Assembly: GCA_034676185.1 (NCBI GenBank)
Contig: JAUCCN010000002.1
Coordinates: 5,536-69,535 of the forward strand
Direction: 5' to 3'
From: Patescibacteria group bacterium
GTDB lineage: Bacteria; Patescibacteriota; Gracilibacteria; BD1-5; UBA6164
Length of the DNA stretch: 64,000 bases
Of the stretch, positions 1,587-64,000 are shown one piece after another. Made by a program: the position numbers and the translations under genes. Below the pieces are notes generated by a model that had not been told where the DNA came from, made no database searches, and saw only the letters and a program-made list of their open reading frames with translations. Within the stretch, counting starts at the first letter, position 1; each line of letters starts with the position of its first letter.

Positions 1587-4154
1587 ATGGATGACACAAA
1601 TACAAATCATTATAAAAGAAATAAAAAGTTATGAACAAATAAGGCTTTTACTTTAGTAGAGCTGATTATTGTTATTACTATTTTAGCTATTTTAGCAACA
1701 ATAGCTTTTATGAGTTTTCAAGGATATAACAAAAATGCAAGAGACTGAAATAGGGCAACAAGTTTAAAAACTATAGAGACAGGATTAGATTTATATAGCA
1801 TTCAAACTTGAGTGTATCCAGAACCAGAATGAACTATTTCAACTGGGAGTATTAATACCATTGATGGGGAGCAAATATTAGTAAAAAAATGAGTTATCTG
1901 AGATAATACTTCAAGAGTGGTAAGACTTAATACAACTCCAAAAGATCCATTATCACTGACAAATTATGTATATGCGACGACAAATGATAATAGAGAGTAC
2001 CAAATAGGAACTGTCTTGGAAACGTGAGTATCATATTTTCCTTTGATTAAAAATACTTATGCTGATAATTGATATCAAGCAAAAGTTCTGGGGAATTATA
2101 AATGATATATTACTTTTAATAGTTGAGGATTGATTTATATTACAAATATTCCAAGTTTGTTGTGGAGTTGAGATATTTCAGTAAACTTACTAGGAAGTGA
2201 GCCAAAATATATAATAAATAATGGGAAAAATCTTCCATATCATCCAAGTAAATGATATATATCATCAGATGAATTAGGAACTGAAAATCCAATTCAAGTA
2301 ATACAAGAAAAAACTCAAAACACAAATGCAACTCTTATAAGTATTTCAAAAACTGAGTTAGAACAAATCGTCAAAGAATTAAATCAAGATGAAAATTATG
2401 AGCTTCCTCAAGACCTAAAAAATAGTTTAAATGTCGATTCTGCACAAGATATCATCAAAAGTTTTTGAGTAAATAATACACAAGATTTTGAGAGAGTTAT
2501 ATTAGGAAACAAAAATACGACTTCTGGAAAAGTTATTCCAAAAACTCCATGAATATGTTGAGAAGCAGCAACTGCATATGCACATAATATGACAAATTTT
2601 ACAGGATGAGTAAATAATTTTTGTGAGGTAGGAGTTTTAGAAGGAAGTGAACCAATTTTTCCTACTCAATGAAATAATGTTTCATGGATATGTGTTTCTC
2701 CAGATTGAGGAGAAAGTGCTGAATGTAGCGCAAGTAGAGCAAATCCAGATGAAGAAGTAAAAGCATGTAGCGGAAAACCACTCAATTCAAAATATTTTAA
2801 TGGAACAGATGATTATTCAGTTACTGTGCCATTTTGAACTCAAGCTCCAGCTGTGACATATTCAGTAACGCCTACAGAAAATAGTTGTGAATATAGTTGT
2901 ATAAATGGCTATAGTATGAATGCATGAAGATGTAATGATTTGACACCACCAACTTGATGAAGTTTTAACATAAATGAATGAGCTACTAATACAAATGTAA
3001 CAGATATTACTCTGAATATTACTTGTGCTATTGATCAAATTGATGGAAGTGATATTCAGGTAGCTTTTGGAAATACTGCTACTCCAACAAATTGGCAAAA
3101 TTGTACTGGTTCTAAAAGTTTAGTTCATACGATTACTACTTGAGATGGAGTAAAAACAGTATATGTCAGATTTAGAGATAGTGCAGGAAATATGACTACT
3201 GCAATAAGTCAAACTATTACTTATGAAGGAGCATTGTATTATTTTACTACCCATACATTTACAAATTGTTGAATGACAGGAAGGACTTGACCAACTCTTG
3301 CAGCTTGTAGATCATCATATGCAACTAGTTGGGTTGGGAATGATAACTTTTTCAAAGAAGCTCATGCGCAATGAATTCAACTTTGGACAGTTCCGAAAAC
3401 AGGATGGTATAGTATAGATACTTATTGAGCTCAAGGAGGAACATTTCATTTTACTTGATGAAGATGAGTAAGAATGAAATGAGATTTTTATTTAGTAAAA
3501 TGAGAAAAATTAAAAATACTTGTTTGACAAAATGGAGGAAATAGTGGAGATCCTCATTGAAATGAAACTTGATGATGAGGTGGAACATTTGTTACAAATG
3601 CTTCAAACACAGCTCTAATTGTTGCTGGGGGGTGAGGGGGGGCTCCATCTAATACTTATGGAGTTAGTTGTTCTAGAGATATTTCTTCACAATGAGATGC
3701 AACTACGAGTACCTCAGGTAGAACTATTACTTGTAATACTACAGCATCTGGTTGAGCGAGTGGAAACTGATGAGTATCAAATTGATCCCACCAATGATGA
3801 GCTTGATGAGGACTGACTGGAAATTGACAGAACTGAATCGCTCATTGCTCACAACCTCAATGATGAGCAAGTTTTACGAATTGATGAGTTGGAGGACTTT
3901 GAAATTCTTGTTATGTTACTGCTAACTTTTGATGATTTTGATGATGATGATGAGGTGGATTATGATGACCATGAGCTTGATGAGGGTATTCTTGATGAGG
4001 AGTAGCATGATCATGGAGTTCATATTCAACTTATGGTGGTTGAGGAGGATCTTTTAGGGCTGCTACTTATAATTGAAATTCAGTTACGAACCCTCTCGCA
4101 ACTGAGTGAGCAAGATCTGGACACTGACAAGTTATTATTACAGCACTGAATTAA
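1587..4154 (+). CDS. Type IV pilin-like protein (prepilin N-terminus) with Cys-rich modules and a C-terminal ALK/LTK-like glycine-rich domain, 855 aa
   Basis: N-terminus MDDTNTNHYKRNKKLGTNKA/FTLVELIIVITILAILATIAF is a class III signal. The frame was checked codon by codon over long stretches and has many in-frame TGA but no TAA/TAG. The C-terminus reads FTNCGMTGRTGPTLAAC...GIQLWTVPKTGWYSIDTYGAQGG...LKILVGQNGG...LIVAGGGGG...FGGFGGGGGGG...GHGQVIITALN. The stop is TAA at 4152. Confidence 0.85.
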
Positions 4155-5438: not shown

Positions 5439-7334
5439 TTTAATAAATTTATTTACTCTATTTATAAATCATCTATAATCTTCTAATTCTCATCATTCTA
5501 ACAAAATAGCTTGTTCGTACACATATTGAATCATATCTTTTAATTTCTCTGATTTAAGATCTTTTTTAAACTCATCAAACATAGAGATAACCAGAGGACT
5601 TTCAGGATTGAGTTCAAGAATTCTTTTTTGAGTTGGAATTGCTTGTCCCATTGCTTTCATCATTTTTTCCATTTGTGGAGTAAGTCATCACTGCTTTGTT
5701 GTAAGAGCTCAAACATTTTCTCCCAGTCTTGATGTTGCTTGAACTTTTTCAAGTTTTTCACTTCAAATAGTATTTTTTATCAGTTCAAATAAATCTTTAA
5801 ATTCTTTTGTTTTTTCTTCAAAATCTTTTTTTTCTTCTTCATTTTGTAATTCAAGGTTTGAAGAGGTAATAGAAGTGATTTTATTTCCATCATATTCGTT
5901 TAAGACTCCAACAATCCATTCATCAATGGTATCAACTAAAAGTAAAACATCAATATTTTTATTTTTAAATTGGTCAATATATGGATTTGCTTTTGCTTCA
6001 GCGAGGTTTTTTGCTGTGATATAATAAATAGTTTTTATTTCTTTTTTTTCTTCGCCTTCACCTTCAGTTTTTTCAATTTTTGCTTTTTGAAGATATTCAT
6101 CAAGAGTGATTTCTTTATTTTCTAAAAGAGAATGAAATTTTACAATCCCAGCAATATCTTCTTTTAAATCTTGTTCATAATAAATTCATTCTTTTAAAAT
6201 TTTTCCGTAATTTTGTAGAAAAGTATTATAATTTTCACCATTTTCTTTGAGTTCAAATTTTAATTTTTCTACGATTTTTTTTGTCAGTCATTTTTTTATT
6301 TTTTCAAGATTGGTATTTGATTGTAACATTTCTCTTGAAATATTGAGTGGAAGGTCAGAAGTTTGAACGACTCCTGAAACAAACCTTAACCACACTGGTA
6401 ATAAATCACGAGCTTTTTCTAAAATCAATACATTTTGTACAAATAATTTTGGCCCATATTCTTTACTTGGGTCATCATTTCCACCAAACATATTTTTTTC
6501 TTGAGGAATAAAAAGAATTGATTTATAACTTATCATTCATTCTGTATTGAGATGAATGTGAGTGAGTGGTTTTTTGAAATCATAACTGAGGGAAGAATAA
6601 AATTCGTTGTATTCTTCATCTTTAATTTCAGATTTATTTTTATTCCAAATTGCTTTGGTTTCGTTTACTTGTTCCCATTTTTTTTCACTATCTTTATTGG
6701 TTTCATTTTCAACTTCTTTCATCATAATTGGCACTCAGACATAATTTGAATGTTTTTTTATCAGTTCTCTGAGTTTCCAATTCTGAGCATATTCATTTTC
6801 TTCTTTTTTGAGGAAAATTTTTATAATCGTTCCTCTTGATGTTTTATTTCATTCACTTAAATCGTATTTTCATTTTCCCTGCGAACTCCAAATAATTGAA
6901 GTTTCAGATTCGTTTGATTTTGTTTCTAGTTCAACTTTTTCTGCAACCATAAAAACAGAATAAAATCCAACTCAAAATTGTCCAATGAGATTATTTTGTT
7001 CTTTTGATTCTTTTAATTTTTCTAGGAAATCTTTGGTTCCAGATTTTGCAATCGTTCAGATATTTTTCATAACTTCTTCACGAGTCATTCAAATTCCATT
7101 ATCTTCAAGGGTAATAATTCCATTTTTTGAATCAGAGTCAATTTTTATTTCAAAATTTGAATTTTCTCATAAATAATTACTGTCAGTTAATGACTTAATT
7201 CTTGCTTTATCTATCGCATCAGAAGCATTTGAAATAAGTTCTCTTAAAAATATTTCTTTATTTGAATAAATACTATGAGTTAAGAGTTCTAAAAGTCTTT
7301 CTGTTTCCGCTTCAAATGAATATTGGTTACTCAT
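5436..7334 (-). CDS. htpG: Molecular chaperone HtpG (Hsp90), 632 aa
   Basis: [65 protein letters not shown] and [11 protein letters not shown]. The C-terminus reads ...[23 protein letters not shown]. Several conserved Gly residues are encoded by TGA. Confidence 0.95.
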
Positions 7335-7356
7335 ATTGTATTCTTTAAAAAATAAA

Positions 7357-7383
7357 TTAGCACATAAATATTGTAAGTGCTAT
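7357..7383 (-). promoter_or_regulatory. CIRCE-like inverted repeat (candidate HrcA operator) in the htpG leader
   Basis: TTAGCACAT-N9-AAGTGCTAT compared with the CIRCE consensus TTAGCACTC-N9-GAGTGCTAA (7/9 matches per arm, exact 9-nt spacer). It overlaps the putative -10. Confidence 0.5.
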
Positions 7384-7409
7384 TTTATTGAATTTTTTTT
7401 AAAAGTCAA
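7382..7409 (-). promoter_or_regulatory. sigma70-like promoter of htpG
   Basis: On the minus strand: TTGACT, a 16-nt spacer, then TAAAAT, about 50 nt upstream of the ATG. Confidence 0.4.
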
Positions 7410-7444
7410 GAAAGAGTTTTATTTATAATTTTTAGTTCGAAAAC

Positions 7445-7472
7445 TTGCAAAAAATATGAAATATGCTAAAAT
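7445..7472 (+). promoter_or_regulatory. sigma70-like promoter of pilin gene 2
   Basis: TTGCAA, a 16-nt spacer, then an extended -10 TGcTAAAAT. Confidence 0.45.
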
Positions 7473-7504
7473 TCGGAGGTACTTATTTTATAACTTTTTG
7501 AGTA

Positions 7505-9670
7505 ATGAAAATACTAAAAATAAAACCAGAAAATGTTTTAAAACATTTTCAAGGTAAAACCAAAGGTTTTACCTTAGTAGAGTTAATCATAGTAATAACT
7601 ATATTATCAATTCTTTCAGTAATAGCTTTTGTAAGTTTTAAAGACTATTCAAAAAGCTCAAGAGATGCAAATAAACTTTCAACCTTTAAAAATATAGAAA
7701 AGGGATTAGATTTGTTTGCTCTTAAAACTGGAAGTTATCCAGAACCAGAATGAGAAGTAACAGAGCTTCTTTGAAGTGGAAATATACTCCTTTTGAAAAA
7801 ATGAATTCTTTGAGAAACTATTTCACAGCAAATTCAAGCAAATAAAACATCAAAAGACCCACTTACCAATGATTATTATACTTATGCAATAACAGAAAAT
7901 AAACAAGAATTTCAGCTTTCAACATTTCTAGAAGATGACTTAGTATGATATACAAACTTACTCTTTTCAAAAATATATGCTAATAATAATTATAAAGCCT
8001 ATGTAATATGAAATTATAAACCAAAGATTTTTGAAGCAAATGGAGTGAGTTATTTTCTACCAAGTTTAATATTTAATTATAGTGGAAGTATAGTAGAGAA
8101 TAAACTAGAAATAAATCAAACAAATGCAGAAAATATATATTATGTAGTCAATAAAGAAAATAATCTGCCATATTGAGGAAATGGAAATACTCAAGTGAAT
8201 AATATAAAAACAAAAGATTTAAGTTATATAAAAGAATTAGAAAACAAATTACTAGAATGAAATGAAAATTTAATACAAGATTTAATAGCTTGAAAAATAA
8301 CAAGTGAAATTACTCCTGACCAAAAAGAAATGATTAAAAATATTATTTCATCTTCAAGTCAAAGTGCAAATAATATAGTATTTCAAAAATGTGAAGCTCA
8401 GGAAATAGATGATTATACTATTTGAGAAACACATCATGGAAATAATTATAATGCTGAAAAACAAATAAATATTACAAATGGAATTCAAGTGTACAAACAA
8501 ATATTTACTTGTAATGATGGAAGTTTTGAAAAAAGTGGAGATGAAATATTTTTATCGCCAAGTTGTGATGAAAACTATGTAGCAAATGGAAATAGTTGTG
8601 AGCTTGATACTTGTAGTTGAGAAAGACCAGATAATAGTGAACTGAACGGAACTCAAGGAACAGCTAGTTGGGCTTGGAGTCAAGAAGAAGCTTGAGTTTG
8701 TAAGTATAAATGTAGCGATTGATTTACTCATCAAAGTTGAGCTTGTAATGATATTACGGCTCCAACTTGATGAAGTTTTACTATAAATTGATGAGCTACT
8801 ACAACCAACTCTACGAGTGTAACTTTAAATATTACTTGTCCAAGTGATGTTTCAAATCCTATACAAGTTGCTTATGGAAATACTTCAAATCCTACAAATT
8901 GGACAACTTGTAATTCTTGAAATATTTCTCATACCTTAACAACTTGAGATGGAAATAAAACTGTTTATGTGAGATTTAGAGATAGTGCTAGTATCCAAAA
9001 TATGACAGGGGATATAAATAGAGAAATTATTTTAAATACATATTATAAATCCTGTTTAGAATTAAAAAATGCTTGAAATAATACGAGTTGAAAATATACA
9101 ATAGCTCCAACATGAAGTCCAATTGATGTATATTGTGAAATGACTACAAGTTGAGGTGGATGGACTTTAATTTGATGAACAAATACAAGTTGATGAAATA
9201 ATGGAGAATGACAAACATATATTGCATTTACAAACTTTTCTAATTATCAACAAAATTGAAAATTATCAAATGCACATATTTCCGATATTTTATCAACAAA
9301 TTCATGACAAAAGTGGATATGGGTACCACAAGAGGCTGTACGGTCGAATACCAATGCATATTGAAAAATTTCAAGTTTTAACTGGGAATCATGAGCGGTA
9401 TTTAATGATTTTAGAATGTATAGTTCTCCCAATTGAACAAATAGCTCTTCACATTGTTGGCATAATAACTCATATTGATTTAGATCATCTTCTCGGTCAT
9501 GAGCTAGTTGTACTGAAACAACGGTAACTCAATGACAATGTAGTTGATGATATGGAAGCACTAATAGGGTATCCTATTGTTGAACTGTTCCTTCTGGAAC
9601 TGCATGACGGTGATGTAGTGATTGTGCTCCTTGAGCATGATCAAGAGCTACATATATTTTAGTTAAATAA
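7505..9670 (+). CDS. Type IV pilin-like protein with shared Cys-rich/Ig-like module and C-terminal fibrinogen-like (YCxxxxxGGGW) domain, 721 aa
   Basis: MKILKIKPENVLKHFQGKTKG/FTLVELIIVITILSILSVIAF. The middle module CNDITAPTGGSFTINGGATTTN...VYVRFRDSA is paralogous to 2931-3195. The C-terminus reads CLELKNAGNNTSGKYTIAPTGSPIDVYCEMTTSGGGWTLIGG. The frame was checked, and the stop is TAA at 9668. Confidence 0.85.
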
Positions 9671-9768
9671 ATAAAATATATAAAATTTTAAATTCCTTGA
9701 CATATTTAAAAAATATGATTAACTTTTCAAGTATTTTAAAAATACAAATATTTTCTAATTTTTAGACT

Positions 9769-10701
9769 ATGAAAAAAATAAATAAGCCTCTTGTTTGAAT
9801 GCTTGCTTTAGCATTTTTAGCATCTCCAGCATTTGTATTTGCTTGAGATGAATCAGAACATGTAAAGACTGAAAAACAACATTTTGAATCCTATTATGAT
9901 CAATTTAAAAAAGAATTTTATCATGATCTTTCAAAATGAAATTTTAGCGGAATTGATAAAAAAATTGCATGATATGAATGAGATATAAAATATTTATCTG
10001 AAAATTCAGAGAGTGAGCATGCGAAACATCTTCCAGTATATAAAGAAAAGCTACAAGCATTAAAAGATGTAAAAGCGAATTTTTTATCTGGAAGTACTAC
10101 TACTTCTCAAATCTCTGAGGAAAATGATACGAGTTATGTTGATAATTTTATAAAAAATTTTTCTACTTATGAAAATCCCTATTCTGTAATTGATACTGAT
10201 TATAAAAATGGTAAGATAAATAAAGTGACATGGCAAAAAGCTTGGAATTATATTCAAGAGCCAAGCAAAAGTGATGTAAAAGATTCTTGAGATAAAAAAA
10301 TTGAGGATATAAAAAAAGATTTTGATAACAAAAAAGAAGATTTGAAAAAATACATGGAAGAAAAAAATACACAAGTAAAAAAAGAATTTGATGATAAAAA
10401 AGGGGATATGAAGAAAAAAGTTGAAGATGTGGTACTTACAACACAATCTCTGGTAAAAAAATATAAGTGAGAGTTTGAAAAAACGCTTGGAGTTAAAATA
10501 GCAAATTTATCAGAAGAGAGAACTACAAAAGTAATACAAAATGTAGAAAAAGCAAGAGAAAAATATAAAGCACTTACTACTATTACAGAAGAACAAAAAA
10601 CAAAATATTTAGCTCAACTGGATGCTTTAAAATTACTTCTTCAAGCAAGGCTAAATGAATTACAAGATATGATTGATATAGAAGCACTTTTTGCTGAATA
10701 G
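9769..10701 (+). CDS. Hypothetical secreted coiled-coil protein, 310 aa
   Basis: Signal peptide MKKINKPLVGMLALAFLASPAFVFA, followed by a Lys/Glu-rich helical sequence. The stop is TAG at 10699. Confidence 0.6.
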
Positions 10702-10703
10702 AT

Positions 10704-10736
10704 AAAAAAAATGAGAATATATATTCTCATTTTTTC
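10704..10736 (+). terminator. rho-independent terminator
   Basis: AAAAAATGAGAATAT/ATATTCTCATTTTTT perfect hairpin with a T-run. Confidence 0.65.
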
Positions 10737-10818
10737 TTTTCTTACATCATCTTTGCAAAAAATATATTGAAAAAAACAAATTTTTTCTATAATAGAGATA
10801 TTATATGATAAAGGGATT

Positions 10819-11985
10819 ATGATGAGTTTGAAAAATATATTGGTGATTTTTTTGGTAAGTTGAGCATTTTTCTGGTATACCATGGTATATTCATCATTTT
10901 ATAAAAATCATGATGTGACATATTCTGGAGTATCTGGGAAAAATATGTATGTTTGAGATCAAATATTATCAAAAACAATAGTAGTTTTTAAATCAAAAGA
11001 AAATATTTCAAACTATGAAATACATTCTTTATGTAAAACAAAAAGTGAATTTTTGTATACTTTACAAACACAAAATTTTTTTTCACTTCAAATAGATGAT
11101 AAAAATTGTAAAAATGGTAATTTTTATTTAAAAGATGATACTGGAAATATTATTTTGAATACTCATTTTACATTAAATATTTTGAGTGATTTTGATTTAT
11201 ATAATAGATTTACAGATTATACTGATACACTTTTAGTGCAAGCAAATCAAAAGCTTTTAACACAAATGCAAAGATTGAAATTATTTGCTTCTGTGGATGA
11301 AAAAATAGCAAATTTTGAATATGTACAAAAACTTAGAATTTATGATGAAGTAGTATATCAAAATAAAAAAATTGAAGAAATACTAGAAAAGAGAAAAATA
11401 AAATATTTGGTTCCTATTATTGGAAAATGACTTCCTGATGGAAAAAATATTTCAAAATTTCCAAATTGAGGTCGTCCGTATAGAGCAAGTTATACGAATG
11501 CCGTACACGAAGGTTGGGATATTGATGCCCCAAATGGTTCAAAAGTAGTTTCAATTGATGATGGAGTGATTGTAAAAGTAATAAATAATTTTACTTTTTC
11601 TGATATAGGAAAAATTAAAAAATGACAAAATTTAACACCAGAAGACAAATTGACAAATCTTGATATTTTAAGAGGAAATCAAGTATGGATAAAAACGATG
11701 AAATGAGATGTAATATTTTATGCTCATTTGAGTAGTGTAGCTTCTGGATTAGAAGTATGACAAACAGTAAAAAGAGGACAACATATTTGAAATACTGGAA
11801 TTACTTGAGTTCCTGATGAGGATTATAAAGATTATCATCTTCACTTTGAACTCAAAAAAAATCCATATAGTAAAGCAAAAGCAGGGAAAAATTCATTGCT
11901 TGATTATATGGCTTGGGATTGGTATTTTAAATGAGAAAGTGTGAAATATATGTTAGAAAATCAATATAAAATTTTTGAAAAATAA
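10819..11985 (+). CDS. M23 family (LytM-type) metallopeptidase with N-terminal membrane anchor, 388 aa
   Basis: HEGWDIDAPNGSKVVSIDDGVIV...YAHLSSVASGLEVGQTVKRGQHIGNTGITG...HLHFEL. The track ORF 11053-11430 is extended through TGA codons. Confidence 0.8.
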
Positions 11986-40325: not shown

Positions 40326-42176
40326 ATGAATAATTTATCTTTAATTGAGTTACTTCCAAAGGTAGTAGCAGATTGAAAAAAAGAAGTTGAGAAGATTATG
40401 GAGAATATCTCCGAGTGAAACAAAATCAAACTTCAAACAAATGAAATAGTAGTTCCCGCAAAGGACTCTATGAAAACTAATTTTAAATTTTGAGAAACAA
40501 ATCTTGAAATTGAAAACTGGCAAAATCGTCTCGTATACGGAGACAATATTCTTGTTATGTCTGCACTTCTTGCTGGAGATTTTGCAAATAATCTTGAATC
40601 TCTCAGATGAAAAATAGATCTTATTTATATAGATCCTCCTTTTGATAGCAAAGCTGACTATAGAACAAAAATCACTCTACCAGGAACAGAACTTGAGAAA
40701 AAACCAACTGTCTTAGAACAATTTGCTTATAGTGATACTTGGAAAGACGGAACTATAAGTTATCTGAAGATGATGTATCCAAGACTTGCTCTTATGAGAG
40801 AATTGTTAAGTGAAACTTGAAGTATTTATGTGCATATTGATTGGCATGTAGGGCATTATGTTAAAATATTACTTGATGAAATTTTTGGGAAACATTCTTT
40901 CAGAAATGAAATAATTTGGTGATATCAATGGTGATGAGTTGGGAAAAGGGAATTTGCAAAGAAACATGATACAATTTATTGGTATTCTAAATCAGATAAG
41001 GAAAGTGATAAATGGATTTTTAATGAAAAAGAAATGAGAGAACCATATATTACTAAAGATGCTAGATGGCATAATAATCAGGATGGAAAACTTTTTAGAG
41101 ATTTATGGGATGATATTCCTGTAATAAATACTATGTCTAAGGAGAGAATAAATTATTGAACTCAAAAACCAGAAAAACTTTTAGAAAGAATTATAAAAGC
41201 AAGTTGTCCCGAATGATGAATTGTTTGTGATTTTTTTGGTGGAAGTGGAACTACTGCAAGTGTAGCAGAAAAATTATGAAGAAAATGGATTAGTTCAGAT
41301 ATTGGAAAACCTTCTGTCATGATTCAAAGAAAAAGATTTATAGATAATGAAGCAAAAACATTTTTGTATCAATCTATTTGAGACTATCAAAAAGAATATC
41401 TTGCACAAACTCATGGAACAAGTTTTAGAATTTGAGATTTAGCAAAGTTAATTTTACATATGTATTGAGCTATTCCGGATGAAACAAGAACATATGCAAA
41501 TGTTTGACATATTCAAGGAACAAAAACATTAGTTATAGCTGATAGTCCAAATAAGTTAACTAATTTAAATACTTTAAAAAAAGCATTATATTTAAAAGAC
41601 ACTTTCCAATGATGATATTGGGAAAAAGTAGTAGTTTTAGGATGGAATTTTAGCTCAACTATTTCATTGGAACTCAGAGAATTAAACTCAGAAGAAATAG
41701 AAGTGCTTGTGATACCGCCAGATTTACTTGATAAACTGAAAACCAAACAAGGGTATAAAAAACTCGTGGATAGTTGAGCTGTGAAATTTAGCTCACTGCA
41801 ATATCTTGATATTTTTACTCCTGAAAGAATTATATCTTGAGAACAAGAACAAATAAATATAAAACTAAAAAATTATATTATTCTTACTCCTGATGCTCTA
41901 CCACTTGATGAAAAAAATAAAGAACTTTTAAAACCAATTATTGCTAATAGTCCTTTGGATTTAATAGAATATTGGAGTGTAGATACTGATTATGACTGAA
42001 AAATATTTAGAAGTGTTTGGCAAGATTATAGGCAAAATACTGAAAATGATAATGATGATTTAAGAGTTATTAAAGAAGCAAAAATTATAGTTCCCAAAAA
42101 GGCTTGAAAAAGAAAAATTTGTGTAAAAGCAGTTGATGTATTTGGATGGGAAAGTGAAGTGTTAATGGAAGTTTAG
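40326..42176 (+). CDS. mod: Type III restriction-modification system methyltransferase (Mod, beta-class N6-adenine/N4-cytosine MTase), 616 aa
   Basis: Motif [11 protein letters not shown] precedes motif [12 protein letters not shown] (beta-class order), with [11 protein letters not shown]. An uncharacterised C-terminal extension of about 300 aa follows. The stop is TAG. Confidence 0.8.
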
Positions 42177-42194
42177 TTTTATAATTATTATTTT

Positions 42195-42413
42195 ATGAAT
42201 AATAAAGAATTATTAAAAGATAGTTTAGAAAATAAATTATTTCTTAAAAATAAAATTTATCAGGAGCAATATGATAGATTAAAAATATTATATTTCATTT
42301 CTTGAATACCGTTACTACCATTAAAAGAATTTAATAAAGGTAAGAAAAATAATGTTATAAATTGAGGATATAGGGGAAAAGTTATTGTCTACAATGAAAA
42401 TTGATGAAAGTAA
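42195..42413 (+). CDS. Hypothetical small protein between mod and res, 72 aa
   Basis: ATG to TAA with five in-frame TGA: MNNKELLKDSLENKLFLKNKIYQEQYDRLKILYFISGIPLLPLKEF... Confidence 0.4.
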
Positions 42414-42443
42414 AAAATTATATTTTTATAATAATAAATAAAT

Positions 42444-45353
42444 ATGAATCCAAATTTACAACTCTCTCAAGATATCACAAACATCGTAAATGATAGCTTT
42501 ATATCTTGAGAAATGCTTGAAAAAGTAAGTCCTGTTACTCGTGAACTCCTACATTTTTGGTTTGATGAAAACTGGACTATAAACAGAAATATAAATTTTC
42601 ATGAAGGACAAAAACAGGCAATACTTAATACTATTTATTTAACTGAAATATTAAAAATTAAAAATGTAGCAGATATTTATAAATCAGTAAGTCCAGATCT
42701 CATTTTAGAAAAATCAATTTGATTAAAATATATAGAATCTGATAGATTTGATTATAAAAGACTTTGTTATAAAATGGCAACTGGGACAGGTAAAACTTGG
42801 GTTTTATCAGCACTTCTTATTTGGCAATATCTTAACTATAAATATCAAAAAGAAAATGATATTTTTGACAGTGAAGTAAAATTTTCTTCTAATTTTCTTG
42901 TAGTTGCTCCATGACTTATCGTTTATGAAAGACTTTTAGATGCTTTTTCTTGAAAAATAGTTTGAGAAAAAAGAGATTTTTCTACTTCAGATTTTAAAAA
43001 TTTTCAAGATTTATTTATTCCAGAAGATTATAGAGAAAGTGTTTTTTCATTTGTTCAGTCTAGCATAGTTACCAAAGAAGAAATTGGAAGAAAAATTATT
43101 TGAGATGGGCAAATAATTATTACAAATTGGCATATTTTTCTAGAAAATGAAGAAATAACAGAAGAAGATTTTGAAAATATTGATATTTATAAAGAAACTG
43201 AAAAAGTTATAAAATCCCTTCTTCCAGCAACTCCTTGAATAAGTGCTTGAAATAGTCTTGAAACTCTTGATAATAAATACTCTTCTAAACCAGAACTAGA
43301 ATATTTAAAAAGATTAAAAAATCTTGTAGTTTTCAATGATGAAGCTCATCATTTATGAGAATCAAACTCAAAAACTGATGATGAAGAAGAAAAAAAATGG
43401 CAACAAGCTATGATAGATATAGCAAAAAATAAAAAAGAGCACTTTTTACAACTCGATTTTACAGCAACTCCATATATTCAAAAATGAAAAGAAAAACAAT
43501 ATTTTCCTCATATAATTGTTGATTTTGATATAGTAAAAGCGATGAAACAATGACTTATAAAATCCCTTGTTTTAGATAAAAGAAAAGAAATTGCTACTTT
43601 ATCAAATGATGAGCTTGAATTTAAAGCAGTCAGGGAAAATGGAAAAGTAATTTCGCTTTCAAAATGACAAGAAATTATGCTTCAAGCATGACTCAAAAAG
43701 CTAAAAATATTAAATGATAGTTTTACAAAAGATTGAAAAAATAAAACTCCAAAAATGCTCGTTGTTTGTGAAGATACAGAAGTAGTTCCATTTGTAGAAA
43801 AATTCTTAGTAGACTTATGATATAACGAAGATGAATTTGTTTCAATACACTCAAATAAAAAATGAGATATGTATGATGAAGATAAAAAGAAAGTTTTTTG
43901 ACTTGATATATGAGAAAATCCAAAAGTTGTTATTTCAGTTTTGATGCTGAGAGAATGATTTGATGTAAATAACATTTGTGTAATAGTTCCACTAAGAAGT
44001 AGTACTTCTTGAGTTTTGCTTGAACAAACGATTTGAAGATGATTAAGACTTATGTGGAGATGAGACCAGGCTTTAGATGAAGCAAAAGCAGAAAATAGAA
44101 AAAGACTTTTTCAAGAGAAAAAATCACCAAATAATTATTATGATATACTTTCGGTTGTTGAACACCCAGCTTTTGAAGAATTTTATAGAGATTTAATGAA
44201 CTCTTGAGAAATAGCATTTTGAATTGATGAAAATGAGCTTGATGAAAAAGATAGAGAGAAAATTACCTGAGAAATAGAAACTATTTCTCTAAAATCTGAT
44301 TATAAAGATTTTGATATAGCTTTTCCTTTGATTATGTCAGATATTGAAGAAATTTTAAAAGCTCCAGAATATAGTATAAATGCACTTTCAAGTTATCCTT
44401 GAGATTATAAAGAGCTCAAAAAAATGGTTGGAACCAAAGAAAAATTTATACAAGAAGCAGTTTTATCTGGAACGAGATTTTGAGATTATGATGTAGATAT
44501 CGGTATTTTAACAGCAAATAGTTATAATGAATATTTAGCAAGATTAACAAGAAAAGTAGCTGATGCAGTTTGATGAGGAGAATTTGATATAAAGAAAAAT
44601 TCTAAAAATTATAATTTAATGCAAATAAATCTTCCTCAAATTACAAGACTTAATCAAGAATATATTGAAAATAAATTATTTTCTCAAAAATTTGAACCTT
44701 TAGAAGATAATAATTGGAAAATTCTTATGATAGATGATATAGCAAAATTTATTATAAAAGAACTCATACAAATTATTGAAAATGCAAAACAAGTGGAAAC
44801 TATTTGAGAAATACAAGTAATAAACAAATATTTAAGCGAAGTTGACAGCATAAAATTAAGAGAAAATTTTTCTATACCAGTTTCAAAGTCTATTTTTGAA
44901 AAGTTGCCTTTTCCTTCAAATAAATGATGACTTGAAGAAGCTTTTATTCGTTTTGTTGATAATGAAAGCTTAGTAGAAAGTTTTTGTAAAATATTTGAAT
45001 TTAAACATTTGTTTTTTAGGATGAGATATATAAGAGATGACGGAATACCGTCATATTATTATCCTGATTTTATTTTAAAAACTGATGAAAAGATATATTT
45101 AGTTGAAACAAAAGCAACTCGTGATATGAATAATCAAAATGTGAGAAGAAAAGAAAATGCTACACTTTCATATCTCAGAAAAATAAATGATTTACCACCA
45201 AATTTTAGACAAGAGAGAATTTGGGAATATGTGCTTTTAAGTGAAGATAAATTTTATATTTATACAAAAAATAATGCAAATATAAAAGAAATTTTGGAAA
45301 GTTCAAAAATATTGGATTTAAAGGGAAATTGAAATCAAGTAGCATTTTTTTAA
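42444..45353 (+). CDS. res: Type III restriction endonuclease Res subunit (SF2 helicase + PD-(D/E)xK nuclease), 969 aa
   Basis: Walker A MATGTGKTW, DEAH box VFNDEAHHL, FTATP and VLMLREGFDVNNI. The C-terminal nuclease motif is YYPDFILK...IYLVETKAT. Many track fragments are in the same frame. Confidence 0.85.
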
Positions 45354-47482: not shown

Positions 47483-48565
47483 ATGCAATGAACTATTAGA
47501 CCAGATTATATTTTGAGAGATCAACTTTTACAAGTTATGATTGATAACGAAGGAAGTGATATGTATATTACTGTTGGCACGTATCCCGCAATAAAAATTT
47601 GATGAGATATTGTAAAAATAGATGAGTGACTTACTATACTCACTTGGAAAGATACTATGGAATTTACTCAATCAATTGTAACTGAAAAACAACATGAATA
47701 TTTAGTAAAATCGAAAAATCTTGATTTTGCATTTTCTTTCTCTGGAAGAAGATTTAGAGTAAATGTTTCGTTTCAGATGTCAAATTATATGGTAGTTATT
47801 AGACTGCTTGGAAATAAAATACCAACAGTTGATGATTTATGACTTCCAGCAATTTACAAAGAAATTACGAAACTTTGACAATGATTGATCCTTGTAACAG
47901 GACCAACAGGAAGTGGAAAATCAACGACTCTAGCAGCTATGATAAATTTTATTAATCAAAATTATAATAAACATATTATCACGATTGAAGATCCGGTTGA
48001 GTATCTTCATCCGCATGGAAAATCTATTGTAGAACAAAAAGAAATTGGAAAGGATATTCCGGATTATAAAACAGCACTTGCTTGAGCTATGAGACAAAAT
48101 CCACAAGTTATTTTATTTTGAGAAATGAGAACCACTGAAGAAATTGAAATGGCTTTAACACTTGCTGAAACGGGACATTTAGTGTTTTCTACTCTCCATA
48201 CTCGTTCTGCATATCAAACGATTTCAAGAATTATTGATAGTTTTGAATCTGGTCAACAAAATCAAATCAGACTTCAACTTGCTGATAGTTTGGTAGGAGT
48301 ATTTTCTCAAAGACTCCTGAAAGCGAGTGATGGAAGTGGAGTAAAATTAGTAAAAGAAATTCTTACTCGTACTTCGGCAGTGGTAAATTTAATTAGAGAA
48401 AATGATCTCCATCAGATTCCTTCAGTGATGCAAATGTGATCAAGAGATGGAATGCAAATTTTAGAAAAAGATATTATTGAACTTATCAATTTATGATATA
48501 TTTCAGAAGAAGAATGACTCAAATATGCAAATAATCCTAAAATTGTAAAAGAATGAATGAATTAA
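47483..48565 (+). CDS. pilT: Type IV pilus retraction ATPase PilT, 360 aa
   Basis: GSDMYITVG, Walker [25 protein letters not shown]-like [25 protein letters not shown] and AVVNLIRE. Confidence 0.9.
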
Positions 48566-49223: not shown

Positions 49224-50306
49224 TTATACATTATTTAATAATTTTTGTAATACATCACTAAAAAAAAGTACTCCATATATTCATAAAGCAAGAAATGGGC
49301 CAAAAGGCATTTTTGTATCTAATGGTACTTTTGAAGATTTGATTCATAAAACTTTTTTTATTTTATGTAAAAACTTTTTTTGCTGCTTATAATATTCTCT
49401 TGTTTTTGTGTAGATAATAATTCCAATTCATACAATACTTCCTAAAAAATAGGAAAGTAAAACTGCATGAAAGCTAAGGCTTACTCAAGCTATAAGTCAC
49501 ATTAAAATTCCAATTCTTAGATCACCTCACCCCATCCAACTTCCTCCAGAAAAGAGTATTTGTAAAAATAAAAATAAAAATACAAAAAAACTCCCAAGTA
49601 TAGCACTTCCTATACTTGATTGTTCAAAATCTATGTACAAGAAATATTTTATAAAAATAAGAATTCCTCATAAACTAAGAAGTATGAGTATATCGTATAT
49701 TTCTTTTAATCATTTGAGCATAATGAGATAAAAGCTTCCAATCATAAGAACTCAAAAACCTATGAACATAAATAATTCTCCCTGAGAAAAATTACTTGAA
49801 TATCCAGGAAGGATTGAAATAATATGAAAATCTGGAATGAGGCTTTGGATTGCAATAGTAATAAAAGTAATACTTATTAATCCAAATAAAATACTATCAG
49901 GAATTTCCAAATAGAGAATATCGTAGAAAACATATACAATAGTAAAAAATGAAAAAAGTAAAAAAAATCATAAAGAATATATTTCTTTCATATTTCATTC
50001 TAAAAGAAGCGAAAAATCAATGAGAAAATATCCAACGAGCATAAAAAGTAATCCAGTTGCCATTTCCAGTATAGGATATATAAAACTAATTTTTTCTTTG
50101 CAATATCTACATTTTCCACCATTTCATAAAAATGAAAAAATAGGAATTAAATCAAGTATTCAAAGAGTATGTTTGCATTTTGGACATTCACTTCTTCCTC
50201 AAATAATTCAAGATTTTTTATGTTTGAGTCTATGAGTAACTACTGACGAAAAACTTCAAAATAAAGTTCAAAATATAAAAAGATAGAGGTAGAATAATAT
50301 TTCCAT
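49224..50306 (-). CDS. pilD: Prepilin peptidase (A24 family leader peptidase/N-methyltransferase PilD), 360 aa
   Basis: Zinc-binding CPKCKHTL...GKCRYCKEKISFIYPILE, a multi-TM body, GGGDLRIG and MPFGPFLALG. Confidence 0.85.
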
Positions 50307-62572: not shown

Positions 62573-64000
62573 ATGAAAACTATAAATACAAAAAAGAAAT
62601 CTCTTCCTACATCTTACTGAACGAAAAGAGAAGAAAAAGTTTGTTTTTCTATGAATGTAAAGAAAGGAATTTGAAAATGATTTACTCTCGTTGAACTCAT
62701 TATTGTCATTACTATTTTGGCAATTTTAGCAACGATTGCTTTTATTTCATTTAAAAACTATTCTTGAAATGCTAGAGATGGAAATAGAATAGCAACTGTA
62801 AAAAATCTTCAAAGTGGTTTAGATCTCTACCAAATTAAAGTATGAAATTACCCATTTCCAGACGGTGATCAGATTCTTACTGGAACCATAAATGATCAAC
62901 CTCTTGCCTATAAATGAGAAATAGGAAATAATATAGTAAGCCAAATCAAGTTTTCTAAACTTCCAAGTGATCCAGAAGAATCAAATCAAAAATATGTATA
63001 TGGAATTACCTCCAATAAACAACAATATCAAATCTGAACTGTATTAGAAAACCCAGTGAGTTATGAACCTTACTTTATAACTCCAACATATGCAAATACA
63101 AATTCATATAAAGCAAAAGTAGAATGAAATTATAAATGATATATTTTATTTTTAAGTTGAGGGACAACGTGGATAGCTAATATTCCAAGTCTTATCTATA
63201 ATTTTACTGGAACATTAAGTGGAAGTGGAATAGATTTACTCAATCAAGCTCAAACATACTATTCAGTAAATACTTGAAATAATCTTCCATATCAACTGAA
63301 GAATGCAAAAAATATAAATCAAGAAGAAAGTGATCAAGTCCTTAAAAATAAAACCTGAAATACAGAAGCAAAGCTAGTAACTCTATCAAAAGAAGAATTA
63401 TTAACATATTTTAATAGTGAGGAGGAAACTCCAACTCTTACAACCTGAATAACTAGCGGAGAATTATTATGAAGTTTTTGAGTAAATAATAAAGAAAGTT
63501 TAGAAATTCTTGTTACTTGAAATGCATCTCCACTAACTCCACCAGCCCCAACTACCGTAAACGGAACTTGTGGAAGTGCCAATAAAATATACGAACATAC
63601 AGATACAACATATTGAACTGGTACATTTTGTGAGAGCGGAATTTCAAATCCAGCAACTCCAGTGTTTCCAACTGAATGAACCCCAACTACTTGGACTTGT
63701 GAATGAAGCGGAACTCCTACTTGAACTACTGCAAACTGTACTGCTAATAAGGCATCTTCCCTAACAAGTGTAAGCCAAACTCAATGTACATCAGCTTGAT
63801 GGGCTTGGATATCAGAGGCAAATGATGTATACATTTGAGATACGAGATGAAACTGATTTTGTATTTCACCAACTATAGATATATGAGACTTAGCTGGACA
63901 ATGAATATCATGGAATGGATGGGGAAATCTTTCATCAAATATAAATTATAATGGATGGAATACAGATACCTGGGCAAGTACTATCAGAGATAGTGATGTC
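62573..64000 (+). CDS. Type IV pilin-like protein 3 (partial, runs off the window)
   Basis: ...MNVKKGIGKG/FTLVELIIVITILAILATIAF. An alternative start is ATG at 62651. It shares GNYKGYI..F.SGG...IANIPSL and the Cys motif CGSANKIY...FCESG...WTCEGSG..ANCTA with pilin 1. The frame is open to position 64000. Confidence 0.8.

What the first reader, a model, noticed from the sequence alone, without database searches (positions are those of the whole stretch)
9040..9670. Second pilin carries a fibrinogen-like (YCxxxxxGGGW) C-terminal domain
Pilin 2 shares its N-terminal pilin domain and a central module with pilin 1, but it ends in a different domain. That domain begins SCLELKNAGNNTSGKYTIAPTGSPIDVYCEMTTSGGGWTLIGG. 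This matches the hallmark start of fibrinogen-related domains (C..L...G...SG.Y.I.P.......V.CDM....GGGWT), which in animals are glycan and ligand recognition modules.

Two paralogous pilins therefore display two different eukaryote-type recognition domains. This looks like a cassette system for host or prey attachment.
Basis: partly seen in the sequence, partly recalled or inferred. Interest (0 to 1): 0.7.

Follow-up and report, generated by a model that had tools for sequence, protein, structure and literature searches.

The report
Swappable fibrinogen-like head on pilin
A 721-residue type IV pilin of an uncultured Gracilibacteria-type bacterium (which reads TGA as glycine) ends in a real but divergent fibrinogen-related domain, and a near-identical strain has that domain's DNA replaced as one block, so it is probably an exchangeable attachment head, a rare example of a known design.

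Summary
The window reads TGA as glycine (code 25). The gene at 7505-9670 then encodes a 721-aa prepilin. Its last 211 residues (9035-9667) pass Pfam Fibrinogen_C (33.8 bits, cutoff 22) and NCBIfam GGGWT_bact (52.8 bits, cutoff 30). A profile comparison with canonical fibrinogen-related domains (FReDs) gives 99.2% probability over the A and B subdomains. The ligand-binding P subdomain is remodelled: the Ca-site aspartates and the GGWW motif are gone, and extra cysteines are present.

The cassette idea is supported by comparison between strains. One metagenome contig is 96.5% identical up to window 9035, unrelated over 9036-9662, and homologous again from 9663. Another contig carries the same domain (81% nt, dN/dS 0.11) behind a different pilin N-terminus. 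No silent copies lie in the window.

This specific domain variant is rare: 2 full-length matches among 1.84 billion representative proteins. The design itself is known. Pilin plus fibrinogen-C is already listed among modular pilin architectures, and lectin-like minor pilins mediate host binding in Saccharibacteria.

Function as an adhesin is inferred. No usable 3D model could be made, because the tools refuse code-25 translations.

The parts
7505..9670 (+). Pilin 2 gene: 721-aa modular type IV prepilin (code 25, 44 TGA = Gly codons, TAA stop at 9668-9670)
   Evidence: It is the same protein as P0001 in the public collection, which was translated there with TGA = Trp.
7505..7567 (+). Leader peptide MKILKIKPENVLKHFQGKTKG, with the predicted prepilin-peptidase cleavage site G21|F22
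   Evidence: PF07963 30.1 bits (cutoff 21.2) and TIGR02532 28.6 bits (cutoff 16.3) over aa 18-42. An alternative ATG at 7463 cannot be excluded.
7568..7639 (+). Hydrophobic alpha1-N helix FTLVELIIVITILSILSVIAFVSF with Glu5, the filament assembly interface
   Evidence: Read directly from the sequence. It is nearly identical in the three pilins of the window.
7640..8740 (+). Pilin globular part (weak T2SSG match, aa 57-147) followed by a long Cys-containing stalk
   Evidence: PF08334 18.4 bits, below its cutoff of 21; TIGR01710 32.9 bits, below its cutoff. Shares 36% identity with pilin 1.
8741..9019 (+). Conserved beta-rich module (ACNDITAPTGG...VYVRFRDSA) immediately upstream of the variable head. 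It is present in pilin 1 and in all pilin2-type genes examined, so it is a likely left-hand homology arm for cassette exchange.
   Evidence: 73% nt identity to pilin 1 at 2931-3184. Present in P0002-P0005. Only weak Big_13 and CBM_6 similarity, below threshold.
9035..9667 (+). Fibrinogen-related-like C-terminal domain (aa 511-721), which is also the exchangeable cassette (9036-9662)
   Evidence: Breakpoints. dN/dS 0.11 against L001.
9050..9172 (+). A subdomain with the hallmark motif: Cys517...YC(544) pair and TSGGGWT
   Evidence: NF040941, aa 516-556, full profile 1-46. Cys, Tyr and GGW columns are invariant in the alignment with bacterial homologues.
9173..9421 (+). B-subdomain-like region (GKLSNAHISDIL..., QKWIWVP, AYGKISSFNW), homologous to the FReD core sheet
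   Evidence: hhalign local alignment, query 3-129 to template 3-126, probability 99.2%. The Pfam match ends at aa 595.
9422..9667 (+). Remodelled P-subdomain-like region with six Cys (C141, C159, C169, C182, C194, C197 of the domain). YGFRSSSRSGASC stands where canonical domains have FSTxDxDNDxxNCA. There is no GGWW motif. It ends in the strand TYILVK.
   Evidence: Only the global hhalign covers it. The Cys pattern and the YGSTNRV and CxDC-PG motifs are shared with the repeats of the multi-domain protein P0218.
9663..9905 (+). Right-hand flank where homology to the L002 strain resumes (85.5%): the last codons, the stop, the intergenic spacer and the start of the downstream gene
1587..4154 (+). 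Pilin 1: paralogous 855-aa modular pilin with the same N-terminus and conserved module but an ALK/LTK glycine-rich-domain-like head
62573..64000 (+). Pilin 3: third large paralogue, cut by the window end. Its N-terminal type is the one that carries the FReD-like cassette in contig L001.
   Evidence: L001 nt 1767-2603 matches window 62681-63511 at 69.5%.
47483..48565 (+). PilT/PilB-family secretion ATPase (pilus motor)
   Evidence: PF00437 142.4 bits
49224..50306 (-). Prepilin peptidase (PilD-like), needed to process the three pilins
   Evidence: PF06750 94.9 bits; PF01478 23.8 bits, just under its cutoff of 26.5

Best explanation
Pilin 2 is a modular type IV pilin of a Gracilibacteria-lineage (Patescibacteria/CPR, genetic code 25) bacterium. 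A class III signal peptide and a hydrophobic alpha1 helix let the prepilin peptidase process it and the pilus machinery insert it into a filament, most likely at or near the tip as a low-abundance subunit. A roughly 460-residue stalk ends in a conserved beta-rich module, which carries a 211-residue head. The head is a divergent fibrinogen-related domain: the A and B subdomains are conserved, and the P subdomain is rebuilt with extra disulfides and without the canonical calcium site. The head is the ligand-binding end and most probably binds a surface structure, likely a glycan, on the cells this host-dependent bacterium attaches to. Pilus retraction by the PilT-type ATPase would then pull the two cells together. 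The DNA for the head behaves as a cassette. It is bounded on the left by the conserved module and on the right by the gene end and downstream spacer, and homologous recombination at these arms swaps heads between strains and between pilin paralogues, changing binding specificity without touching the assembly part.

Shown: the gene and its code, the pilin signature, the FReD homology, purifying selection on the head, the block replacement between strains, and the mosaic relationships. Inferred: incorporation into pili, position in the filament, ligand class, and role in host attachment.
For: Code 25 and an intact 721-aa ORF.

Pilin signature above curated cutoffs, plus a prepilin peptidase and a T2SSE-family ATPase in the same window.

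FReD homology:
- PF00147 33.8 bits, above the cutoff of 22; NF040941 52.8 bits, above the cutoff of 30.
- Solved FReDs and intelectins down to E 1.4e-6 with the single sequence, and 3.5e-14 with a family profile.
- hhalign 99.2% over domain residues 3-129.
- The global alignment matches total length and the P-domain cysteine pair.

The head is under purifying selection: dN/dS 0.113 at dS 0.94.

Cassette behaviour:
- L002 is 96.5% identical over window 7273-9035, has no similarity over 9036-9662, and is 85.5% identical from 9663.
- The replacing domain is a different FReD-like variant, PF00147 28 bits.
- L001 carries the same head (81% nt, 82% aa) behind a pilin-3-type N-terminus.
- L003, L004 and pilin 1 carry other heads after the same conserved module.

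Precedent:
- Modular pilins use a grafted module for adhesion, and the architecture IPR012902-IPR002181 is listed 8 (+2) times (PMC8179133).
- Lectin-like minor pilins with C-terminal domains are needed for host binding in Saccharibacteria (PMC11623550).
- Gracilibacteria use code 25, express type IV pili, and are predicted to be host-attached (PMC11452946).
Against: No 3D model of this domain could be obtained. The tools refuse the code-25 translation. The Trp-mistranslated version gave pLDDT 39.8. The proxy (P0218 repeat) gave pLDDT 44.7, and its Foldseek hits, although all FReDs, have TM about 0.22.

The last 82 residues have no local sequence match to any canonical FReD. The calcium-site aspartates and the GGWW motif are absent, so lectin activity cannot be carried over from ficolins.

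The globular pilin domain matches T2SSG only below threshold. No small major pilin and no minor-pilin operon lie next to the gene. Nothing here shows expression or assembly.

The cassette evidence rests on single short metagenome contigs (L001 10.2 kb, L002 2.7 kb). The L001 gene has an in-frame TAA.
Confidence: 0.65

Rival explanations
1. The protein is not a pilus subunit. The class III signal peptide and hydrophobic helix serve only as a membrane anchor, or as a pseudopilin-like stalk of a secretion system. The FReD-like head is then displayed on the cell surface at the end of a long stalk, independent of any filament.
For: At 721 aa it is far larger than assembling major pilins. The T2SSG and GspG models match only below their cutoffs. 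The three large pilins are scattered, not in a pilus operon, and no small major pilin lies in the 64 kb.
Against: The alpha1 helix, including Glu5, is almost identical in all three paralogues, as expected for co-assembly. A prepilin peptidase and a PilT/PilB-family ATPase are present. Comparably large modular pilins are modelled or shown to be in pili (PMC8179133, PMC11623550).
Confidence: 0.15
2. The head is a FReD-fold module that binds a protein or serves another purpose, such as self-recognition or aggregation, rather than acting as a glycan lectin.
For: The P subdomain lacks the calcium-site aspartates and the GGWW motif of lectin-type FReDs. Many animal FReDs (angiopoietins, FGL1, fibrinogen) bind proteins, and they appear among the hits at similar scores.
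Against: The best single-sequence hits are the glycan-binding intelectins XEEL and intelectin-1, but only over the shared N-terminal part. The one CPR system tested points to glycan binding by pilin heads. Neither point is decisive.
Confidence: 0.2
3. The domain is a recent acquisition from an animal or other eukaryote (a truly eukaryote-type domain), and the local rise in G+C marks the transfer.
For: G+C rises to 35-37% in 9305-9670 against 21-31% in most of the gene (one 150-nt bin near 8555 reaches 40%). FReDs are best known from animals.
Against: The bacterial model NF040941 scores higher than the general Pfam model. The only full-length relatives are two code-25 pilins. 24 of the Gly codons in the domain are TGA, which is the host's own usage. 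Archaeal-type and bacterial pilin-FReD fusions recur.
Confidence: 0.04
4. The feature is an artefact: a chimeric assembly joining a pilin gene to unrelated DNA, or a decaying pseudogene tail.
For: The breakpoint with L002 sits exactly at the domain start. The homologue in L001 has an in-frame TAA in its N-terminal part.
Against: An independent contig from another sample (L001) is colinear at 81% identity across the junction, window 8719-9682. The reading frame is open for 721 codons. dN/dS is 0.11. The same protein is in an NCBI record on a 107-kb contig.
Confidence: 0.02

Closest known systems
Modular type IV pilins of Streptococcus sanguinis: PilB (vWA module) and PilC (concanavalin-A-like lectin module); Raynaud et al. 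2021 (PMC8179133), Shahin et al. 2023 (PMC9934059)
   Same: An N-terminal pilin module carries a grafted, independently known binding domain at its C-terminus. The module gives the pilus its adhesive specificity, and the subunit is expected to be a low-abundance one near the tip. The paper's Dataset S1 already lists pilin + fibrinogen C-terminal domain (IPR012902-IPR002181) as an architecture: 8 proteins, plus 2 with an extra domain.
   Different: Here a roughly 460-residue stalk with a conserved beta-rich module separates pilin and head, rather than a short loop. The head is a FReD-like fold that has not been studied on any pilin. The organism is a code-25 CPR bacterium. Head exchange between strains is documented here.
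Lectin-like minor pilins PilX1/PilX2 of Saccharibacteria (Nanosynbacter lyticus TM7x), PMC11623550
   Same: CPR episymbiont. These are large pilins with extra C-terminal domains that resemble lectins. PilX2 is needed for efficient host binding, and binding is sugar-inhibitable. This is the closest functional analogue.
   Different: The head folds differ (jelly-roll and beta-propeller against FReD-like), the phylum differs, and there is no sequence relationship between the heads. Function is tested there and untested here.
Animal fibrinogen-related domain lectins (ficolins, tachylectin 5A, FIBCD1) and intelectins (XEEL, intelectin-1)
   Same: The A subdomain with its disulfide and the YC(D/E)MTTxGGGWT motif; the B-subdomain core; the overall domain length; a terminal beta strand ending in a basic residue.
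   Different: The calcium-site Asp residues, the GGWW motif and the residues after the second canonical Cys are not conserved, and there are two extra Cys pairs. Similarity to intelectins does not go beyond the shared N-terminal segment. The domain is fused to a pilin rather than to collagen or coiled-coil oligomerisation regions.
Bacterial 'fibrinogen-like YCDxxxxGGGW domain-containing protein' family (NCBIfam NF040941)
   Same: Full-length match to the 46-position model, well above its cutoff. As in many other members found in metagenomes, the domain ends in a hydrophobic-x-hydrophobic-K/R strand.
   Different: The model covers only the first 46 residues. The remaining 165 residues of this domain have only two full-length relatives among 1.84 billion representatives. 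The closest beyond those is the three-repeat protein P0218 at 26% identity.
Neisseria pilE/pilS antigenic variation and swapping of phage receptor-binding-protein heads
   Same: A variable C-terminal, surface-exposed part is exchanged by recombination at conserved flanks, while the assembly part stays constant.
   Different: No silent donor copies occur within the 64-kb window. The exchange seen is between strains and paralogues and involves whole unrelated domains, not mini-cassettes within one fold.

Membership tests
Fibrinogen-related domain (Pfam PF00147 / FReD) | Score above the curated gathering threshold of the family model | tested here: met
   33.8 bits against a cutoff of 22, E 3.9e-8. 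The match covers only profile positions 2-85 of 221.
Fibrinogen-related domain (Pfam PF00147 / FReD) | A subdomain: first disulfide pair and the YC(D)M..(D)GGGWT motif | tested here: met
   SC...VYCEMTTSGGGWT. The columns are invariant in alignments with bacterial and canonical members.
Fibrinogen-related domain (Pfam PF00147 / FReD) | B subdomain core (WLGN..I..L; strand pair; A.Y..F.V motif region) | tested here: met
   hhalign local alignment, query 3-129 to template 3-126, probability 99.2%, E 2e-19.
Fibrinogen-related domain (Pfam PF00147 / FReD) | P subdomain: D-x-D-x-D calcium site, NCA...GGWW(Y/F)..C disulfide loop, ligand pocket residues | tested here: not met
   Not reached by local alignments. 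In the global alignment the Asp positions read S-R-S-G, GGWW is absent, and only the Cys pair (C159-C169, with a 10-residue step between the cysteines against 13 in canonical domains) is kept.
Fibrinogen-related domain (Pfam PF00147 / FReD) | FReD three-dimensional fold | tested here: inconclusive
The mistranslated version gave pLDDT 39.8. The proxy P0218 repeat gave pLDDT 44.7; the top 50 Foldseek hits are all FReDs but with TM about 0.22.
Bacterial GGGWT domain (NCBIfam NF040941) | Score above the curated cutoff over the whole 46-position model | tested here: met
   52.8 bits against a cutoff of 30, aa 516-556, profile 1-46/46.
Type IV pilin (prepilin with class III signal peptide) | N-terminal cleavage/methylation motif G|FTLxE with Glu5, followed by about 20 hydrophobic residues | tested here: met
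   PF07963 30.1 bits (cutoff 21.2); TIGR02532 28.6 bits (cutoff 16.3); sequence KG|FTLVELIIVITILSILSVIAFV.
Type IV pilin (prepilin with class III signal peptide) | Cognate machinery in the genome (prepilin peptidase, assembly/retraction ATPase) | tested here: met
   PF06750 94.9 bits at 49224-50306(-); PF00437 142.4 bits at 47483-48565. PilC, PilM, PilN and PilO were not looked for.
Type IV pilin (prepilin with class III signal peptide) | Globular pilin fold after alpha1 | tested here: inconclusive
   PF08334 T2SSG 18.4 bits, below its cutoff of 21; GspG and ComGC equivalog models far below their cutoffs.
Type IV pilin (prepilin with class III signal peptide) | Physical incorporation into a filament | not testable with these tools
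   Needs proteomics of sheared pili or imaging.
Modular pilin (sensu Raynaud et al. 2021) | IPR012902-type N-terminus plus at least one extra domain not specific to pilus biology | tested here: met
   PF07963 plus PF00147 in one ORF. The architecture IPR012902-IPR002181 is listed in Dataset S1.
Intelectin / X-type lectin | Intelectin-specific region following the FReD-like segment | tested here: not met
   XEEL and intelectin-1 are the top solved hits, but alignments stop at domain residues 63-88 (130 for the lamprey serum lectin with the family profile). This domain has 211 residues, while the matched intelectin chains are 279-333 residues.

The most novel reading that the evidence does not exclude
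Large pilins of Gracilibacteria may form a head-swapping system comparable to phage receptor-binding proteins. A constant assembly and stalk part ends in a conserved module that acts as a recombination arm, and whole lectin-like domains are exchanged between strains and paralogues to retarget the pilus to new host or prey cell envelopes. The heads seen so far are two FReD variants, an ALK-type glycine-rich domain and at least two unknown folds. In this reading the FReD variant here, with its rebuilt, disulfide-rich P subdomain, has a ligand specificity not seen in animal FReDs, and head identity predicts host range.
Probability: 0.25. Interest if true: 0.7.

Novelty: new member of a known kind. 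Interest (0 to 1): 0.45.

Why it matters
Code-25 Patescibacteria depend on other cells: the only cultivated examples (Absconditabacteria) are predators, Gracilibacteria themselves are uncultivated, and how any of them recognise a host or prey is largely unknown. A pilin whose tip domain is a recognisable, strongly constrained binding fold, and whose tip alone is replaced between near-identical strains, gives a concrete candidate for the host-specificity determinant and a way to test it: express the heads and probe host envelopes or glycan arrays.

There is also a practical point. Public protein sets translate this gene with TGA as Trp, and the precomputed Pfam annotation of that record lists only the pilin motif. 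The domain is therefore invisible in existing annotation. The same is probably true for many surface proteins of code-25 lineages.

Against that, grafting binding domains onto pilins is an established principle. Pilin-FReD fusions are already catalogued, and allelic replacement of adhesin heads is common in bacteria. This extends known biology rather than overturning it.

Tried and rejected
- **Structure prediction of the real domain.** Structure prediction and the search of protein representatives refuse any sequence that is not a table-11 translation of the window or a database hit.
- **AlphaFold on the mistranslated sequence.** The public Trp-mistranslated sequence with a 16-row alignment gave pLDDT 39.8, which is unusable.
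- **AlphaFold on a proxy.** The nearest correctly translated relative (P0218 repeat 1) gave pLDDT 44.7. All Foldseek hits were FReDs but with TM about 0.22, so I treat this only as consistent, not as proof.
- **Word-indexed homologue search with the Gly version of the domain.** It found nothing. This was caused by the database's Trp translations, not by absence.
- **Looking up the encoding contig of P0001.** Not on record.
- **Genome-collection scan with the whole pilin.** No relative found. A scan with HtpG then placed the window next to Patescibacteria and Gracilibacteria MAGs. The closest MAGs show no pilin motif within 1 kb upstream of htpG, so synteny could not be followed.
- **JGI metagenome scans.** The first used peptide patterns containing Gly/Trp positions that cannot match TGA, so it was not a fair test. 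A hand-made DNA pattern for HCWHNNSY-TGA-F found nothing.
- **Silent cassettes or a diversity-generating-retroelement template repeat in the window.** None found.
- **Promoter and terminator scan.** Not above shuffled expectation.
- **Literature search on bacterial FReDs.** It returned nothing relevant.
- **Intelectin membership.** Rejected, because similarity stops after the shared N-terminal segment.
Full report
**Genetic code and gene model**

With the standard bacterial code, the region 7400-9700 is a string of short ORFs. All in-frame stops of the long frame starting at 7505 are TGA. The window has about 26% G+C. Reading TGA as a sense codon restores full-length genes all along the 64 kb, ending in TAA or TAG.

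Three observations show that TGA means Gly and not Trp:
- In the orthologous gene of contig L002, TGA codons of the window align with TGA (24 times) or GGA/GGG (7 times), and never with TGG.
- In the orthologous C-terminal domain of contig L001 the counts are 18 TGA/TGA and 7 TGA/GGA, again with no TGG.
- The invariant GGGW motif is spelled S-TGA-GGT-GGA-TGG in the window; the public code-4 translation of the L001 gene spells it GGWW, which puts the TGA at its third glycine.

HtpG, the neighbouring gene, is 95% and 86% identical to those of two 'Patescibacteria group' MAGs and about 67% identical to those of several 'Candidatus Gracilibacteria' MAGs. Gracilibacteria are known to use code 25 (PMC11452946).

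The gene 7505-9670 encodes 721 residues with 44 TGA codons. The same protein is present in the public collection (P0001, NCBI, 107-kb contig), but translated with Trp at every TGA. Its precomputed Pfam annotation lists only the pilin motif.

**Check of the observation**

Support for the fibrinogen-related call:
- Pfam Fibrinogen_C matches residues 514-595 with 33.8 bits (cutoff 22, E 3.9e-8). This covers only profile positions 2-85 of 221.
- NCBIfam NF040941, 'fibrinogen-like YCDxxxxGGGW domain', matches residues 516-556 over its whole length with 52.8 bits (cutoff 30).
- Against solved structures, the single sequence finds 68 chains at E up to 1 (about 35 at or below 1e-3). These are intelectins (XEEL, 1.4e-6), FGL1, ficolins, angiopoietins, tenascins and fibrinogen chains, always over the first 60-85 residues of the domain.

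**How much of a fibrinogen-related domain (FReD) is there**

I re-translated the orthologue from L001 with code 25 and aligned it with the window's domain. I compared that small profile with nine canonical FReDs taken from the database hits.
- The local hhalign alignment has probability 99.2% (E 2e-19). It runs from domain residue 3 to 129 against template 3-126, so it covers the A subdomain and the B-subdomain core. GKLSNAHISDIL lies on WLGNDNIYRIT, QKWIWVP on the ELRIDL strand, and AYGKISSF on AYARYGTF.
- The last 82 residues align only in global mode. There, total length matches (211 against 211 of 227). YGFRSSSRSGASC lies on FSTSDRDNDKSCA, and C159...C169 lies on the canonical P-subdomain disulfide. 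However, the calcium-site aspartates read S-R-S-G and the GGWW motif is missing.
- The final strand TYILVK corresponds to the hydrophobic-x-hydrophobic-K/R ending of bacterial relatives (xIWVR) and of canonical domains (MKIRP).
- The extra cysteines and the motifs YGSTNRV and CxDC-PG are shared with the three repeats of an 1152-residue multi-domain protein, P0218 (HGSTGRVC, CDDTCYPGP). It is only 26% identical overall.

I conclude that this is a complete but divergent FReD in which the lobe that forms the ligand pocket in animal lectins has been rebuilt.

A direct structural test failed for technical reasons. The prediction tool refuses code-25 translations. The Trp-mistranslated sequence gave pLDDT 39.8. 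The P0218 proxy gave pLDDT 44.7; its 50 best Foldseek hits are all FReDs but with TM about 0.22, which is consistent but not probative.

**The carrier is a type IV pilin**

Residues 18-42 match the prepilin cleavage/methylation motif above both curated cutoffs. The sequence reads KG|FTLVELIIVITILSILSVIAFV, with the conserved Glu5.

The window holds three such genes (1587-4154, 7505-9670, 62573 to beyond 64000), with almost identical alpha1 helices. It also holds a prepilin peptidase (49224-50306, minus strand) and a PilT/PilB-family ATPase (47483-48565).

Pilin 2 and pilin 1 are 36% identical over residues 17-524 and 16-562, and then diverge completely. Just before the divergence both have a conserved module, ACNDITAPTGG...VYVRFRDSA (window 8741-9019; 73% nt identity to 2931-3184).

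Pilin 1 ends in a domain that matches the ALK/LTK extracellular TNF-like/glycine-rich region in solved structures (E 5e-10 over residues 8-275 of the domain). It matches PF12810 just below threshold.

**Cassette behaviour**

This is the strongest new result.
- Contig L002 (ENA metagenome assembly) is 96.5% identical to the window from 7273 to 9035. It has no detectable similarity for its next 711 nt, opposite window 9036-9662. It is homologous again (85.5%) from 9663 to 9905.
- The replaced block is exactly the FReD-like domain. The N-terminal 510 codons differ by only dS 0.09.
- The replacing domain is a different FReD-like variant (YCDMTDQDGGWTL; PF00147 28 bits), about 23% identical to the window's domain.
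- Conversely, contig L001 (another sample) carries the same head together with the conserved module (81% nt over window 8719-9682; 82% aa over the 211-residue head). There it sits behind an N-terminal part that resembles pilin 3.
- The head is under strong purifying selection (dN 0.106, dS 0.936, ratio 0.113).
- Pilin2-type genes in L003 and L004 keep the N-terminus and the conserved module but end in two further, unassigned domains.
- Other Gracilibacteria pilins recovered with the full-length query carry LamG, BspA-type LRR, He_PIG, LCCL and other modules according to their precomputed annotation.
- No second copy of the cassette and no template-like repeat exists in the window. The evidence is therefore for exchange between strains and paralogues, not for programmed switching.

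**Distribution**

A full HMMER scan of 1.84 billion representative proteins with the domain profile gave 271 hits at E up to 1e-3. The profile had to be the Trp version, because only that was accepted. Only two hits cover the whole domain: the window's own protein and the L001 protein. The rest match the first 45-60 residues or are canonical FReDs.

This is a lower bound, because code-25 genes translated with code 11 would be shredded. Two scans of JGI metagenome contigs found nothing, and the first of these could not have matched TGA-encoded glycines.

Fusion of a pilin N-terminus to a FReD is not unique. Two short bacterial pilins (P0118, P0120), one protein with an archaeal class III signal (P0101) and another code-25 pilin (P0068) have it.

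**Comparison with what is known**

Raynaud et al. (PMC8179133) defined modular pilins and showed that the vWA module of S. sanguinis PilB is an adhesin. They listed 264 architectures, and their Dataset S1 includes IPR012902-IPR002181 (pilin + fibrinogen C-terminal domain) 8 times, plus 2 with an extra domain. None of these has been studied.

In Saccharibacteria, minor pilins with lectin-like C-terminal domains have been identified. PilX2 is needed for efficient host binding, and binding is sugar-sensitive (PMC11623550).

Gracilibacteria express type IV pili and are predicted to live attached to hosts (PMC11452946).

The present protein is thus a new, divergent member of a known design. What is new is the FReD variant, its occurrence on a long-stalked pilin in a code-25 lineage, and the clean evidence that the head is exchanged as a block.

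**Most likely mechanism**

The prepilin peptidase removes the 21-residue leader. The alpha1 helix docks the subunit into a filament built by the pilus machinery. Size and precedent suggest a position near the tip. The stalk holds the FReD-like head away from the filament, and the head binds a surface ligand of the partner cell, with a glycan as the leading candidate. Retraction then brings the cells together. Recombination at the conserved module (left arm) and the gene end/spacer (right arm) replaces the head and changes specificity.

The shown and inferred steps are listed under the best explanation. I put about 0.9 on the domain identity, 0.85 on cassette exchange, and 0.6 on pilus-mediated adhesion as the function.

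**Verdict**

The finding is real and correctly interpreted in its main points, and the cassette idea is reinforced. It is of moderate interest because the principle and even the architecture are already catalogued. It is nevertheless useful as a concrete, testable candidate for host-specificity determination in Gracilibacteria, and as an example of how the wrong genetic code hides domains in public annotation.

Noticed in passing
window 3400-4154 (C-terminus of pilin 1, gene 1587-4154): Pilin 1 ends in a domain homologous to the extracellular TNF-like/glycine-rich region of the ALK and LTK receptor kinases. Solved ALK/LTK chains match at E 5e-10 over about 270 residues, including FTxCGxxGxxGPTxAxC. 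PF12810 scores 21.8 bits, just under its cutoff of 24.5.
   Followed up: partly
whole window; public proteins P0001, P0016, P0002-P0005: Public protein collections (NCBI, Logan, ENA) hold these genes translated with TGA = Trp (code 4) instead of Gly (code 25). The precomputed Pfam annotation of P0001 therefore lacks the fibrinogen domain. The word-indexed search with the correct sequence found nothing, and structure prediction on the stored sequence fails.
   Followed up: yes
L001 1602-4175 (stop at 1980-1982): The pilin gene that carries the orthologous FReD-like head in contig L001 has one in-frame TAA at codon 127, inside the pilin domain. The gene caller split it into a 126-aa and a 589-aa product. 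It may be a pseudogene, a sequencing error, or a phase-variable gene.
   Followed up: no
window 9769-11985: Immediately downstream of pilin 2 lie a secreted, Lys/Glu-rich coiled-coil-like protein (9769-10701; signal-peptide-like N-terminus; only a sub-threshold apolipoprotein match) and a membrane-anchored M23 peptidase (10711-11985; PF01551 59.3 bits). A cell-wall-cutting enzyme next to an attachment pilin would fit a predatory or parasitic contact zone.
   Followed up: partly
L003 134-2971 and L004 259-2106: Two further pilin2-type genes keep the N-terminus and the conserved module, then end in Cys/Trp/Asn-rich domains of 285 and 143 residues with no Pfam match. The L003 gene also has an extra inserted copy of the Cys-rich stalk segment.
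   Followed up: partly
window 62573-64000: A third large pilin paralogue is cut by the window end, so its head is unknown. Its N-terminal type (69.5% nt to L001) is the one that carries the FReD-like cassette in another strain.
   Followed up: partly
window 8555-8700 and 9305-9670: G+C rises locally to 35-40% inside a gene that is otherwise 21-31% G+C (150-nt bins). One rise lies in the Cys-rich segment before the conserved module and the other in the second half of the FReD-like head. It may reflect amino-acid composition (Cys, Gly, Ser, Thr, Arg) or foreign origin.
   Followed up: no
window 40326-45353: Two long ORFs (616 and 969 aa) look like a DNA methyltransferase (IYIDPPF motif) followed by a helicase/restriction-type subunit, i.e. 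a probable restriction-modification system. This is judged from the sequence motif only and was not run against any library.
   Followed up: no
P0101, P0118, P0120, P0068 (database hits): Fusions of a class III signal/pilin N-terminus with a fibrinogen-type domain recur in unrelated uncultured lineages. One has an archaeal-type signal (PF04021), and its FReD keeps the canonical NCA...WWY..C P-subdomain motifs.
   Followed up: partly
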